Below, piece after piece: positions 13,378 through 19,745 of a DNA stretch of 64,000 nucleotides. Made by a program: the position numbers and the translations under genes. Location of the stretch: NCBI RefSeq assembly GCF_009914755.1, contig NC_060926.1. One strand, written 5' to 3'. Position 1 is the first letter of the stretch; every line of letters begins with the position of its first letter. The stretch is from the human T2T-CHM13v2.0 reference genome, Homo sapiens. The notes below the pieces were generated by a model. The model saw only the letters and a list, made by a program, of their open reading frames with translations, had not been told where the DNA came from and did not search any database.

Positions 13378-13495
13378 CTAGAGGGTGGTCTCACTGTCAG
13401 TTTCTCTTCGGTATTTATCCATGTCTGTGAAGTCATAGTCTGACTCCATCTCTATCTTCACCTGTGGCACCATGAACACTGGGTTCCGTGAGTAG
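13378..13495 (-). CDS. SLC4A5: Putative alternative SLC4A5 C-terminus ending in class I PDZ ligand ETTL
   Basis: YSRNPVFMVPQVKIEMESDYDFTDMDKYRRETDSETTL*; in frame if exon 17618-17702 is skipped; resembles the NBCe1-C tail. Confidence 0.6.
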
Positions 13496-13927
13496 CTGAA
13501 AGCAGGTGAAGCTGGACAGGATATTTTGAAGTGCAAGGTGATGCTGAACGAGAAGTAGGAAAGAAGGATTACGTAGTTCTTGGTGTTTTGAACCCATCCC
13601 CTAGAGCAGGGCTCTAATGCAAATACTTCCATCTTCGCTTCTGAACTCTCAGCACATGCCAGAATGAGCAGTTTCCTATTGGCTTGGCCTTCAGCCATAG
13701 TCACGCATCTGGTCTCACCCTGTAAACCTATCTTCACATTGCTGCCAAGGTGAACTTTTGAAATCACAAATTTGGTGATTCCTCATTGGGTTCAAAGAAT
13801 CTAAGCTCCTTAGTGTGAGAAGACAGGAGTGTCTTGTCTTCTCACAAACACAAACACAGTCTTCTGTGTTTGTAGTCCTGCCTGCTTAGTTTGCCCCATC
13901 CATTGCAGTGTTCTTTGCTCTTTGGAG

Positions 13928-13981
13928 GTGTGTGTGTGTGTGTGTGTGTGTGTGTGTGTGTGTGTGTGTGTTTGTGTGTGT
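13928..13981 (+). repeat. (TG)n microsatellite
   Basis: About 21 perfect GT units plus an interrupted extension. Confidence 0.95.
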
Positions 13982-15255
13982 TTTCAAATGGTACTTCGGG
14001 CCTGTGTCCACTGCCTGAAATGCCTTTTCTTTTCTCTGCCCCGCTCTATGTCTGGCAGATTCCAGTTTCCCTTTCTTAGATTCTCAAAACGAGGCTACTC
14101 CCTCCCTGTGTACTCCGATATTCTTGCACAGGGTGCTCTGTCTTTGTTTGCATGCCTTTCTTTCCACATCCTCAGGGATTAAGCATCGCACCTGGTAGAT
14201 CATTGATGCTTAGTCTTTGTTAAACCAGATCATGTTGCAGAGCCTTTCACTGAAACAGAATCTTGCTATTTAGTGATCTTTGCCTCCATCTGTTTTCATA
14301 AATTCAGTAAAACACCAATGAGGTTGGGAGATACCATCTCCAGTTACCAAAGTTTCTTCATTTCTGACCCTGTCTTAGGGCCTTGTGTAATTTAACAGGG
14401 TTTTGGAAACCCCTAACCTGGTCCAAATTTTCTCTCTACTGCCTGAAATTGGGAGTAGTCAGTCAATTTCATGTAGATTATTTTATAAATGAAAATAAGA
14501 TAGACTGCTTTTCTCATAATACCGGTGTATACTAATGTATAAAGATCAATGGCATCACATATATAGGAGCCTGACTGGGGAAGTGGGATGAGAAGGAAGG
14601 TGGAGATTAACTGGGACAGGTGACACTTTGGGCTAGAGCATCTTTGGGACTGCTGCTTAGGGAGGGTTGAACTGGGGAAAAGTGTGTCGTTTCACCCTGG
14701 CATTGGGATAGCAGCTTTGCCTTATAATTCAGAAGATCCCCTGCCCCGTTTCCCCAAAAATCTCTTGGATGAGTGCCCTCTGTGCCTGGAGATTGATCTT
14801 CTAGACTTGGGATAGCCTGTGCTGTAATTACTGTTTGATCCCTGTCCATTCTAGGGCACAAGGTAGGAGTGGGACTGCCCCTGGCATCTTCCCAAGTAAC
14901 AATGAAGTAAAGCCTTTCTTGCCTCTAAATTCATCTTTTCTGTGTTTGCCCCCACTATGTCATCATCAGGGAGTCTCACCTTTTTCACGGGTGGCTTCTC
15001 ATGAAGAACAATCACATTGTTGGCATGGGGGCTCCTGGCAACTGGCCTTGAACCTATTCTTAACAGTTCCCATCTCCAGTTGATCTCTGATGTTAGCTTT
15101 GATGTTGATCTCTGATGTTGGCTTTCCTCCATACCCTTTCTGACCTTTGCTAATTAACCCTGCTGTTAATTCATTCTACAGAGTACCCCAGGGTTTCGAT
15201 CCTTAGCGTTCATTTATCCTGGCTTTCAGTGATATTACACTTAAGCCATGCCTAG

Positions 15256-15893
15256 TTTTTCTGTTTTCTTTTTTTTTCTTTTTTTGAGATGGAGTCTTGC
15301 TCTGTTGCCCAGGCTGGAGTGCAGTGGCGTGATCTCGGCTCACTGCAAGCTCCGCCTCCCAGGTTCACGCCATTCTCCTGCCTCAGCCTCCCGAGTAGCT
15401 GGGACCACAGGCGCCCACCACCATGCCCGGCTAATTTTTTGTATTTTTAGTAGAGACAGGGTTTCACCATGTTAGCCAGGATGGTCTCCATCTCCTGACC
15501 TTGTGATCTGCCCGCCTCAGCCTCCCAAAGTGCTGGGACTACAGGCGTGAGCCACCGCGCCTGGCTTCTGTTTTCTGTCAATATTTCCTTTCTTTTTTTT
15601 TTTTTTTTGAGATGGAGTCTCACTCTGTTGCCCAGGCTGGAGTGCAGTGGCGCGATCTCGGCTTACTGCAAGCTCTGCCTCCTGGGTTCATGCCATTCCC
15701 CTGCCTCAGCCTCCCTAGTAGCTGGGACTACAGGCCCCCACCACCATGCCCAGCTAATTTTTTTGTATTTTTTTAGTAGAGACGGGGTTTCACCATGTTA
15801 GCCAGGATGGTCTCGATCTCCTGACCTCGTGATCCACCCGCCTTGGCCTCCGAAAGTGCTGGGATTACAGGTGTGAGGCACCGTGCTGGGCCA
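15256..15893 (-). mobile_element. Tandem pair of AluY-like elements
   Basis: gcaagctccgcctcc, ttcacgccattctcc and ttagccaggatggtctc diagnostics. Confidence 0.92.
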
Positions 15894-16183
15894 CAACGTT
15901 TACTTTCAATTTTTGTTCTACCTAATCTTTTATAAGAATTTCCTTTACTAAAGTTGAATACCTTTGTGTGTTGTAACCATGTTGTTAAGTCAGTAAGAAG
16001 ACATACTTGTTTCTTGGCCCTGAATGATGAGTCAGGTTTGTCAGCCTTTGACTCCCAGTTGGGGGCCAGCAAGGGCCTTCTACTGAGAGGACAGCTAGCT
16101 TGGGAAATCCTAGACCCTCCACCTTCCCGGCCATTTCCTAGTCTCTTACCTAATACGCAAGGAGTCTACCTAACAGTGTTTAC

Positions 16184-16251
16184 CTTCGGTCAAGTTCTGT
16201 GTCACTGAAGGAAGAATCAGAGTGAGTAACTCCAACTGGAAGATCTTTTTC
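16184..16251 (-). CDS. SLC4A5: SLC4A5 68-nt penultimate exon with canonical stop (TGA 16219-16217)
   Basis: tgccag|GAAAAAGATCT...GACCGAAG|gtaaac; canonical frame (R)KRSSSWSYSL*. Confidence 0.92.
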
Positions 16252-17507: not shown

Positions 17508-17617
17508 CTCTAGCATCCAAAATGATTAGATCCCCCTGAGTTACAGATGAAAGTTCCTAGGGGAAAGACATGGAGGACTAGTAGTAAGAAGGGAGAGACA
17601 TCATGTGTTTTACTTAC

Positions 17618-17702
17618 TGGCAATGCAGTGGATACCGTTTTGGGGATCTGATTGGACACTTTCCATGGGAATCTTTATAACCGAGGGAGGAGGGAACTGG
17701 GG
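17618..17702 (-). CDS. SLC4A5: SLC4A5 85-nt exon
   Basis: tttttctccag|CCCCAGTTC...ATTGCCA|gtaagt; [28 protein letters not shown]. Confidence 0.93.
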
Positions 17703-17753
17703 CTGGAGAAAAACAGTGGGAAAAGAGGATAAACACCAACACAACAACTTGGC

Positions 17754-18054
17754 TTTCTTTTTTTTTTTTTTTGAGACAGAGTCTCGCTCTACTGCCCAGG
17801 CTGGAGTGCAGTGGTGCGATCTCGGCTCACTGTAACCTCTGCCTCCTGGGTTCAAGTGATTCTCCTGCCTCAGCCTCCCAAGTAGCTGGGATTACAGGCG
17901 TGCACCCCCATACCTGGCTAATTTTTTGTATTTTTAGTAGAGATGGGGTTTCACCATGCTGGCCAGGCTGGTCTTGAACTCCTGACCTTGTGATCCCCCC
18001 TGCCTCGGCCTCCCAAAGTGCTGGGATTACAGATGTGAGCCACCGCGCATGGCC
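17754..18054 (-). mobile_element. AluS-like with TSD aacaacttggctttctt, about 50 nt upstream of the 85-nt exon acceptor
   Basis: Alu consensus flanked by a direct repeat. Confidence 0.92.
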
Positions 18055-19589
18055 AACAACTTGGCTTTCTTGCCAAGATGGAAAATGCATGCATGAACAT
18101 TGCAAACCACCATTCTGTTCACCTCTAAACAGTTAGGGGATGCTGCAAATACCCTGGGGTCCACTGAAGGGGAATGGGCACAGTTAGCCTGCTGTCCTAT
18201 ACACACCATCAGACAGACCGGAACTCTTCCAGGAATGTTACTCATCAAAACAGTTTTATCTGTCACAGCAACCAGTCACTTGGGAATGAACCTCACACAA
18301 CAACTGTGTTGCTATAAGACAAGTAAAATGAATTTGTATAAATTGAATCCTGTTTTTCCATTGATATATCATAATTCAGAGATTCTTTTTCCCAACCCTG
18401 TAATAGTTCTTGGCATGTGGTAGCCACTCAGATATTTATTGAAAGTATCAACAAAAGAAGTATTTGTCTTTAAAAGGCACTTAGTCTCTGTTTCTTTGTT
18501 TTCAGAACCCACCTTTACAAATCATCTACAAACACATGCATTATGGGACTCTTCCTGGAAGAGCACAGTAATTAAGGACCAGGGGAGTTCTGACTGATCA
18601 GAAGATGGTTTAATCACCACCAGCCAGTCAGAAGGGATTTGCCTTGAACAGGTTTCATCTGCACAAGGCAAAATCACGAGAACAGGACAGGGTGGATGCA
18701 GGGACGTGAGTTTGGGTCAAATTGGGAGATTGGGAACCAAGCACAGCATTAGGAGATGGCACAGGCAGCTTAGCATATCAGAAACCAGCAAAGTCAGGAA
18801 TTATTTTCTTAATTCCTTCTTAGAAATGTAGCTACATGTCCATTTTGGGTAAGTCACTTCCTTTTGTGGGGACAGTTTCATCATAAGTAATGAACACATG
18901 AATTAAGAATCTTTCTGCCTCATGTTTTGTGATTCACTATAATTTCTGGACTGGCCCCTTGTCTGTTGACTCCCTGAGTGTTTTGGGGATGAAATGGGAA
19001 GGGACCATGGGAGAAGAGGGGCAGATGGGGCAACCATGTTGTCCCAGACATCTGGGAAATGTAGCCAGTCTCCTTTTGGCGAGGATACCTGCCTCTTTCC
19101 CCATCTTTGTCCTCAATACCCTAGGCAAAGGCGCAAGCAAAACTTGTTCCCAGCCCCTCCTGCCTGTCTGGAGTCCAGTCTACTTATAAGGCCCCATTAG
19201 ACACCTCTCCCCAAGTCTGCTCCACTCTTTGGAGGTCAGTCTTCATAACCTCCTTCCATGCTGGAGCTGCCTCCTGGCCCTTCCCACAGGAACCCGCTTG
19301 CTGTGATCACGGCCGTAAAGCCCACAGTGATGGAAAGAGTGGGCATGGCCAGTCACCTTTTCCCTGGACAGGGAGTCTCATTCACTCTGGCCCACCCTGA
19401 GGATATTCACATAAACAGAAGAGCCCTCAACACCCCAGACCAAGACAAGCAGATGCCCCAGCCCATCCTGGACTGGGCCGAGGCACTGCTGCAGGCCACC
19501 CAAGAAGCCGCCCTCTCCCTGTCCCTGGCAAAAGTGGAGAGAAGGTCTCTCAATTTCTCCTCTGTGCCCCGGCCTCACATCTTCCCCAC

Positions 19590-19745
19590 CTCCTCATCAC
19601 AGTCCTCGTGGGCCCCTTTTTTTCTCTTCCTCTTCTTGTCTGTCTCCTTTTTTTCCTTCTCTGGGAGGATGTTGTCAATCCAGGCCAGGTCGTGCTGGGA
19701 AAAGATGAAATCCAGAAGCCTTCGAACGATGATGAGGCCCAGGAT
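19590..19745 (-). CDS. SLC4A5: SLC4A5 exon (last TM segment and Lys-rich cytoplasmic tail)
   Basis: ccacag|ATCCTG...GAGGAG|gtgggg; [52 protein letters not shown]. Confidence 0.94.

What the first reader, a model, noticed from the sequence alone, without database searches (positions are those of the whole stretch)
13378..19590. Hidden NBCe1-C-like PDZ-ligand C-terminus in the SLC4A5 3' UTR, opened by skipping one 85-nt exon
Seen in sequence: the exon ending ...DCDEE (19590, phase 0) normally joins the 85-nt exon 17702-17618 and then the 68-nt exon, which stops at SWSYSL*. If the 85-nt exon (length 1 mod 3) is skipped, the 68-nt exon reads open as EKDLPVGVTHSDSSFSDTELDR. Its AG+C junction is in frame with the last exon, giving S-YSRNPVFMVPQVKIEMESDYDFTDMDKYRRETDSETTL*, 61 aa with the 13495 acceptor. 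Established knowledge (from memory): the paralog SLC4A4 makes the brain variant NBCe1-C by skipping a 97-nt exon at the equivalent position, giving a 61-aa tail that starts EKD and ends roughly PVKVVPQIRIELEPED...GTETTL, a class I PDZ ligand. Inference: SLC4A5 keeps an ancestral frame-switch splice that yields a PDZ-anchored NBCe2 isoform distinct from the usual SSWSYSL end. I cannot check whether any annotation already lists it.
Basis: partly seen in the sequence, partly recalled or inferred. Interest (0 to 1): 0.88.

Follow-up and report, generated by a model that had tools for sequence, protein, structure and literature searches.

The report
Alternative PDZ-type tail of human SLC4A5
Part of the annotated 3' UTR of the human bicarbonate transporter gene SLC4A5 encodes an ancient alternative protein end, conserved from sharks to primates and already modelled in many other species, so it is real but only modestly new.

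Summary
Skipping the 85-nt exon (17702-17618) shifts the 68-nt exon into an open frame. That frame runs into the last exon and stops at 13380-13378, ending in ...SETTL.

The tail is coding, not a relic. A search with the 54 residues read from the "UTR" gave 313 hits. Of the 120 listed, 116 end in ETTL, and 102 are full-length SLC4A5 orthologue models with exactly this skip architecture. They range from sharks, gar and sturgeon to birds, mouse and a New World monkey.

The same genome's SLC4A4 has the same layout: a 97-nt cassette, an 80-nt two-frame exon and a 61-residue ...TETTL tail. The two tails are homologous.

Two corrections:
- The conserved acceptor is the annotated one at 13543 (77-residue tail), not 13495 (61 residues).
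- The tail is not hidden, because predicted isoforms of many species already carry it.

I could not test whether human tissues make this isoform, or whether the tail binds PDZ proteins. No paper I could search describes an ETTL-ended NBCe2. Interest is modest.

The parts
19590..19745 (-). Constitutive exon that ends in phase 0 with the acidic run ...DCDEE. It is the donor for both splice choices.
   Evidence: Its homologue in SLC4A4 was found in the same genome (E 3.1e-10, E 1.8e-15).
17618..17702 (-). 85-nt cassette exon (length 1 mod 3). Inclusion gives the annotated short end. It carries the motif SVIKIPMES.
   Evidence: It corresponds in position and motif (IKIPM) to the 97-nt SLC4A4 cassette. 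Bird models include an equivalent exon.
16184..16251 (-). 68-nt exon read in two frames. With the cassette it gives 11 codons and then TGA at 16219-16217. Without the cassette it gives 22 open codons (EKDLPV...ELDR) plus two bases of a split Ser codon.
   Evidence: The stop lies 33 nt before the last junction. The skip frame is present in 102 of 120 listed orthologue models.
13378..13543 (-). Start of the last exon, annotated as 3' UTR in the selected transcript. In the skip isoform it encodes 54 residues (ITLHFK...SETTL) followed by TAG at 13380-13378.
   Evidence: 313 database hits, with 116 of the 120 listed ending ETTL. Homologous to the SLC4A4 last coding exon (E 1.8e-5, 0 of 5000 shuffles).
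13494..13497 (-). It is probably not the functional site.
   Evidence: One search shows the site. None of the 119 listed tail-bearing hits lacks the upstream 15 residues. 43 of 56 distinct tails have Asn at the Ser codon that creates the AG.

Best explanation
Bases 13378-13543, annotated as 3' UTR, are the coding end of an alternative NBCe2 (SLC4A5) isoform.

How it works:
- When the 85-nt cassette exon is skipped, the phase-0 exon ending DCDEE joins the 68-nt exon directly.
- The 68-nt exon is then read one frame over and loses its stop.
- It splices at the annotated acceptor 13543 and adds a 77-residue tail ending -E-T-T-L, a class I PDZ-ligand type end.
- When the cassette is included, translation stops in the 68-nt exon, 33 nt before the last junction. 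That is close enough for the message to escape nonsense-mediated decay, so both messages should be productive.

The switch is inherited from the common ancestor of the two electrogenic cotransporter genes. SLC4A4 uses the same three-exon device to make NBCe1-C.

Shown here: the frames, the splice sites, homology to the SLC4A4 tail, and deep conservation of the tail in orthologue models.

Inferred: that human cells make this isoform, that the ETTL end docks onto PDZ scaffolds, and that the switch changes localisation or regulation rather than transport itself.
For: - Frames and sites.
- Orthologues: the 54-residue UTR frame finds 313 proteins. Of the 120 listed, 116 end ETTL, 2 end ETIL and 1 ends ETSL.
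- 102 of the 120 are full-length (800 residues or more) SLC4A5 models in which the skip frame of the 68-nt exon is joined to ...SITLH and no cassette is present.
- Taxa named by the sources include Aotus (isoforms X2, X3, X5), rabbit, cat, orca, cattle relatives, bats, mouse (UniRef D3YX36_MOUSE), birds, turtles, lizards, sharks, gar, bichir and sturgeon.
- Human differs from the Aotus tail at 1 of 77 residues. Shark models are 74% identical over 54 residues.
- Paralogue in the same genome: a 97-nt cassette, an 80-nt two-frame exon and a last exon giving a 61-residue ...TETTL tail. tblastn E is 1.8e-5, and the alignment score is 67 against 22.4 +/- 4.2 for shuffles, with 0 of 5000 reaching it.
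- The stop-to-junction distance is 33 nt in SLC4A5 and 36 nt in SLC4A4.
- Bird models with the cassette end ...RKRASTWSFAF, so both ends exist outside mammals.
- The literature gives the same logic for NBCe1-C (exon 24; 61 versus 46 residues; 'typical PDZ-binding motif') and for NBCn2 cassette B (PMC4664831 passages; PMC4507446 passages).
Against: - I saw no human transcript, junction read or peptide; no tool here holds such data.
- The RefSeq transcript shown in the hub's table includes the cassette. The table lists only 1 of 3 transcripts, so I cannot tell whether another one skips it.
- None of the 120 listed hits is named as human. Clustering at 90% identity could hide a human entry, so this is weak evidence.
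- The orthologue proteins are mostly automatic models, and I did not see their RNA support. 4 of the 120 are frame-inconsistent models and 10 join the tail in other ways.
- PDZ binding rests on the motif alone.
- Pfam finds nothing in the tail (0 families).
Confidence: 0.8

Rival explanations
1. Relic in human. The tail is coding in other vertebrates, but humans or catarrhine primates always include the 85-nt exon. The open frame in the human UTR would then be a recently disused remnant.
For: The selected RefSeq transcript includes the cassette, and the hub's table reports only three transcripts for the gene. No hit named as human is among the 120 listed. The seven published NBCe2 variants (a-g) are described as differing in the N-terminus and a 16-residue cassette, not in this tail (PMC4664831 passages).
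Against: The human frame is intact over 77 codons and all four splice sites are canonical. Human differs from the New World monkey model at only 1 of 77 residues. For roughly 230 neutral bases over that distance I would expect far more changes; the expected divergence is recalled, not computed here. The Ser seen in human at that position also occurs in 11 other distinct tails.
Confidence: 0.15
2. The human isoform uses the internal acceptor at 13495.
For: The site has a reasonable pyrimidine tract and AG. It is in frame. It lines up with the SLC4A4 acceptor in the tail alignment, where the SLC4A4 tail starts at the position matching residue 41 of the SLC4A5 tail.
Against: None of the 119 listed tail-bearing hits lacks the 15 residues upstream of it; hits 121-313 were not seen. 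Those residues are the best conserved block, with 9 of 17 columns invariant and mean identity 0.87. 43 of 56 distinct tails have Asn where the human Ser codon supplies the AG.
Confidence: 0.04
3. Annotation artefact. The ETTL-ended models in other species are products of gene-prediction pipelines copying one another, and the frame is conserved for non-coding reasons such as UTR regulatory sequence.
For: Most hits are predicted ('isoform X', 'hypothetical protein') entries. Several are visibly mis-modelled: 4 contain both the cassette and the skip frame, and 10 use other joins.
Against: Amino-acid identity of 61-100% over the last 38 residues and 76-100% over the preceding 17 is kept from sharks to human, without stops or frameshifts, across 55 distinct sequences. 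Non-coding conservation does not preserve one reading frame over that span. An independent paralogue, SLC4A4, has the homologous tail, and the literature read here reports it as a cloned protein variant, NBCe1-C.
Confidence: 0.01

Closest known systems
NBCe1-C, the SLC4A4 variant made by skipping exon 24 (Bevensee et al. 2000, as cited in PMC4664831, passages read)
   Same: Both have a phase-0 acidic exon, then a cassette whose length is 1 mod 3 (97 nt versus 85 nt), then a short exon read in two frames with the short-form stop 36 versus 33 nt before the last junction. A last exon follows that is UTR in the short form and coding in the long form. Both long tails start EKD and end ETTL. The tails are homologous.
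   Different: The SLC4A5 tail is 77 residues, not 61. It carries an extra, very conserved block (ITLHFKISCPASPAF) that I did not find in the SLC4A4 tail. The two-frame exon is 68 nt rather than 80 nt. NBCe1-C is reported as a cloned variant and was studied in oocytes in the work cited; I found no such work on the SLC4A5 form.
Predicted SLC4A5 isoforms of other vertebrates, for example Aotus nancymaae isoform X2 (P0005) and mouse UniRef entry D3YX36_MOUSE (P0061)
   Same: They have identical architecture: the acidic exon joins directly to the skip frame of the short exon and then to ...SITLH...ETTL. The Aotus tail matches human at 76 of 77 residues.
   Different: These are models of other species. 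For the human gene, the one RefSeq transcript shown to me treats the region as UTR.
NBCn2 (SLC4A10) cassette B switch
   Same: The logic is the same. Inclusion of a cassette gives short ends without a PDZ motif. Exclusion gives a long end with a PDZ-binding motif, and usage is tissue specific (PMC4507446 passages).
   Different: tblastn found no sequence similarity to the SLC4A5 tail in the 30 kb downstream of the homologous exon of SLC4A10, SLC4A7 or SLC4A8 (best E 0.23).

Membership tests
NBCe1-C-type C-terminal frame-switch (electrogenic Na/bicarbonate cotransporters) | A cassette exon whose length is not a multiple of three, directly after a phase-0 exon | tested here: met
   85 nt after ...DCDEE in SLC4A5; 97 nt after ...DSDNDD in SLC4A4.
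NBCe1-C-type C-terminal frame-switch (electrogenic Na/bicarbonate cotransporters) | The next exon is open in the skip frame and carries the short-form stop close to the last junction | tested here: met
   22 open codons in the skip frame. The stop lies 33 nt before the junction in SLC4A5 and 36 nt in SLC4A4.
NBCe1-C-type C-terminal frame-switch (electrogenic Na/bicarbonate cotransporters) | The long tail is homologous to the NBCe1-C tail | tested here: met
   tblastn E 1.8e-5 in a 40-kb target. Local score 67, with 0 of 5000 shuffles reaching it. Cross-frame controls reached their scores in 747 and 434 of 5000 shuffles.
NBCe1-C-type C-terminal frame-switch (electrogenic Na/bicarbonate cotransporters) | The skip transcript is actually made (in human) | not testable with these tools
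   No transcript or read data are held. For other species, 102 of 120 listed models have the skip form, but I did not see their RNA support.
Class I PDZ ligand | C-terminal x-[S/T]-x-hydrophobic motif (definition recalled) | tested here: met
   The human end is E-T-T-L. 116 of 120 listed hits end ETTL, 2 end ETIL and 1 ends ETSL.
Class I PDZ ligand | Binding to a PDZ domain | not tested
   No PDZ partner sequence could be used with the complex predictor, and I name no specific partner.

The most novel reading that the evidence does not exclude
The ETTL-ended form may be the main working NBCe2 at the apical membrane of choroid plexus and retinal pigment epithelium in mammals, humans included, rather than a minor variant. 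The conserved block before it and the class I PDZ end would then set the transporter's unusual apical polarity and its regulation, and the reference SYSL-ended form would serve other tissues. One hint is a mouse database model (P0061). It combines the MDTL start, which a paper describes for the choroid-plexus variant NBCe2-g (PMC4507446 passages), with the ETTL tail.
Probability: 0.2. Interest if true: 0.55.

Novelty: new member of a known kind. Interest (0 to 1): 0.35.

Why it matters
NBCe2 moves bicarbonate at the apical side of the choroid plexus and is also studied in kidney, liver and retina (PMC8875008 and PMC3804831, passages). If human tissues make the ETTL form, several things follow:
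- Antibodies, expression constructs and variant interpretation built on the reference C-terminus would miss it.
- Variants in what is called 3' UTR (13381-13543) would be missense or nonsense changes in this isoform.
- A PDZ scaffold could explain where the transporter sits in the cell.

The finding also shows that the tail switch known for NBCe1 predates the split of the two electrogenic cotransporter genes.

It does not reveal a new mechanism, and sequence databases already hold the isoform for many species. That limits its weight.

Tried and rejected
1. Searching the window's own genome with the short tail pieces (38 and 22 residues) found only the window itself. I found the SLC4A4 tail only after locating the paralogous upstream exon and fetching 40 kb downstream of it.

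I then used a 44-residue region of a penguin model that contains the cassette. It returned 18 hits, all birds, so it does not show whether fish or sharks have the cassette.

3. I looked for family-wide tail homology by tblastn of the SLC4A5 tail against 30 kb downstream of the homologous exons of SLC4A7, SLC4A8 and SLC4A10. Nothing convincing appeared (best E 0.23).

4. My first regular expression for classifying models was too strict and put shark models under 'other'. One search replaced it.

5. Literature:
- 'NBC4' with 'SYSL' gave 0 papers.
- 'SLC4A5' with 'ETTL' gave 1 paper, on NKCC1 and CSF secretion, which I did not open.
- Searching for the tail-end strings gave 137 papers; the 20 listed matched ordinary words.
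- A four-term isoform search gave 1,212 papers, none relevant among the 15 listed.
- 'NBCe2' with 'PDZ-binding' and 'C-terminal' gave 4 papers. In the two I read by passages (PMC4464172 and PMC4664831), none of the passages ascribes a PDZ tail to NBCe2.
[quoted passage not shown] 2013 and Fukuda et al. 2013. A description of this tail in them cannot be excluded.

7. Pfam finds no family in the tail.
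Full report
**What the sequence shows.**
- On the minus strand, exon 19745-19590 ends in phase 0 with ...DCDEE before a GT donor.
- The 85-nt exon (17702-17618) and the 68-nt exon (16251-16184) both have canonical AG and GT sites.
- With the 85-nt exon included, the reading frame enters the 68-nt exon and stops at TGA 16219-16217 (...SWSYSL*), as annotated.
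- With it skipped, the 68-nt exon is read one frame over. It gives 22 open codons starting EKDLPV and ends with two bases (AG) of a split codon.
- The annotated last-exon acceptor at 13543 supplies a C, which makes Ser. The frame then stays open for 54 more codons (ITLHFK...SETTL) to TAG 13380-13378. That is a 77-residue tail after DCDEE.
- An internal AG at 13495, 48 nt downstream, is also in frame and would give 61 residues.

**The paralogue in the same genome.**
- The upstream exon finds its SLC4A4 counterpart on contig C4 (E 3.1e-10, 53% identity).
- In the 40 kb downstream, tblastn with the SLC4A5 UTR frame hits one place at E 1.8e-5. This is the SLC4A4 last coding exon, ending TETTL.
- Reading the region gives a 97-nt cassette exon, an 80-nt exon that carries the short-form stop in one frame and is open in the other, and the last exon.
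- Skipping the 97-nt exon yields 61 residues that start EKD and end TETTL. Including it yields 46 residues.
- A review gives the same 61 and 46 residues and attributes them to exon 24 splicing (PMC4664831, passages).
- The two skip tails align with a local score of 67 against 22.4 +/- 4.2 for shuffled sequence, and 0 of 5000 shuffles reach it. Cross-frame controls were reached by 747 and 434 of 5000 shuffles.
- The cassette exons share the motif IKIPM at matching positions, but the evidence is weaker: 73 of 5000 shuffles reach that score.
- In both genes the short-form stop lies 33-36 nt before the last junction. By the usual 50-55 nt rule (recalled), neither message should be a target of nonsense-mediated decay.

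**Orthologues.**
- Searching the large protein database with the 54 residues of the UTR frame, restricted to longer proteins, gave 313 hits, of which 120 are listed.
- Of those 120, 116 end ETTL, 2 end ETIL, 1 ends ETSL and 1 has no tail at its end.
- By architecture:
  - 102 are full-length models (800 residues or more) in which the skip frame of the short exon joins ...SITLH and no cassette is present.
  - 3 are short fragments with the same join.
  - 4 contain both the cassette and the skip frame, so they are frame-inconsistent models.
  - 10 carry the last-exon tail with some other upstream join.
  - 1 has no tail.
- Source names cover a New World monkey (Aotus isoforms X2, X3, X5), rabbit, rodents including mouse (UniRef D3YX36_MOUSE), carnivores, cetaceans, ruminants, bats, birds, turtles, lizards, sharks and rays, gar, bowfin, bichir and sturgeon.
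- I aligned the 55 distinct tails with the human one. Mean identity to human, by segment:

| Segment | Mean identity to human | Invariant columns |
|---|---|---|
| Short-exon skip frame (22 residues) | 0.62 | 0 of 22 |
| Junction Ser plus next 16 residues | 0.87 | 9 of 17 |
| Last 38 residues | 0.72 | 8 of 38 |

- The Aotus tail differs from human at 1 of 77 positions.
- One reading frame conserved from sharks to human, without stops or frameshifts, is what a coding sequence looks like. I did not have nucleotide alignments, so no dN/dS was computed.

**Which acceptor.**
- The 15 residues that acceptor 13495 would remove sit in the best conserved block, and all 119 listed hits with a tail keep them.
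- At the codon that creates the AG in human (Ser, AGC), 43 of 56 distinct tails have Asn, 12 have Ser and 1 has His. Asn codons cannot supply that AG.
- The annotated acceptor 13543 is therefore the conserved one, and the 77-residue tail is the expected product.
It may be relevant that the SLC4A4 acceptor lines up with 13495 in the tail alignment.

**Both ends are old.**
- A penguin model that wrongly runs the cassette into the tail shows that birds have the cassette.
- A search with that 44-residue region returned 18 bird models. Several end ...RKRASTWSFAF, the counterpart of the human short end.
- Together with the SLC4A4 parallel, this puts the switch at least in the amniote ancestor and probably before the SLC4A4/SLC4A5 duplication.
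- The search was limited by shared words and returned only birds, so the state in fish is open.

**Mechanism.**
- Shown: a cassette of length 1 mod 3 toggles the frame of the next exon. Inclusion gives a 39-residue end, and exclusion gives a 77-residue end that finishes with a class I PDZ-type motif.
- Inferred: the ETTL end binds PDZ scaffolds and alters localisation or regulation. The review read here states that the different NBCe1 ends do not change transport activity in oocytes and that the NBCe1-C end has a typical PDZ-binding motif (PMC4664831).
- The tail lies outside the Pfam membrane domain, which ends at residue 1046 of 1148 in the Aotus model. The tail itself matches no Pfam family.

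**What is known.**
- In the papers I could read by passages, seven NBCe2 variants (a-g) are listed.
- The three variants treated as sound differ in the N-terminal variable region and in a 16-residue cassette. NBCe2-g is an N-terminal truncation starting MDTL (PMC4664831; PMC4507446).
- None of the passages I read mentions an ETTL-ended NBCe2.
- My searches are listed under 'tried and rejected'. Three key papers were not held, and supplements were not consulted.
- The sequence databases, in contrast, already hold the isoform for many species.
- For human, the hub's table shows one of three RefSeq transcripts, so I cannot say whether a skip transcript is annotated.

**Verdict.**
- It is a further case of a known kind of switch (NBCe1-C; NBCn2 cassette B) and is already modelled in other species.
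- What remains open, and worth a quick look in expression data, is whether and where humans use it.

Noticed in passing
window 17660-17702 (-) and 13441-13485 (-): The cassette exon and the tail exon share a motif: [15 protein letters not shown] against PVFMVPQV-KIEMES. The local score is 29 against 18.6 +/- 3.6 for shuffles, and 89 of 5000 shuffles reach it. SLC4A4 shows the same pairing. Both alternative ends may keep one functional motif, or the cassette may be an old duplicate of part of the tail exon. The evidence is weak.
   Followed up: partly
P0061 (mouse, UniRef D3YX36_MOUSE): This mouse model starts with MDTL and ends with the ETTL tail. MDTL is the start that PMC4507446 gives for the choroid-plexus variant NBCe2-g. 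This hints that the choroid-plexus promoter form may carry this tail. I could not read the original NBC4g paper.
   Followed up: no
window 16217-16251 (-): The first 35 bases of the 68-nt exon are coding in two frames. Both products are recognisable in birds (...RKRASTWSFAF in one frame, ERGPPPGALRSD... in the other), so this stretch is probably under two-frame constraint.
   Followed up: partly
window 10993-12316: According to the hub's table, the SLC4A5 last exon (10993-13543, minus strand) and the MTHFD2 last exon (8830-12316, plus strand) overlap tail to tail by about 1.3 kb.
   Followed up: no
window 15912-16206: The RefSeq enhancer feature in the hub's table overlaps the 3' end of the 68-nt exon (16184-16206) and its donor site.
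   Followed up: no
P0043, P0046, P0048: The donkey and black rhinoceros models end ETIL instead of ETTL. One bat model, which is frame-inconsistent, ends ETSL. The hydrophobic last residue and the Thr at position -2 are kept in all three.
   Followed up: no
P0057, P0059, P0067: Some bird models (emu, kiwi, blue tit) join the acidic exon almost directly to ...ITLH and omit the short exon as well. Skipping both human exons (85 + 68 = 153 nt) would not give the ETTL frame at acceptor 13543, so these models must use other sites or be errors.
   Followed up: no
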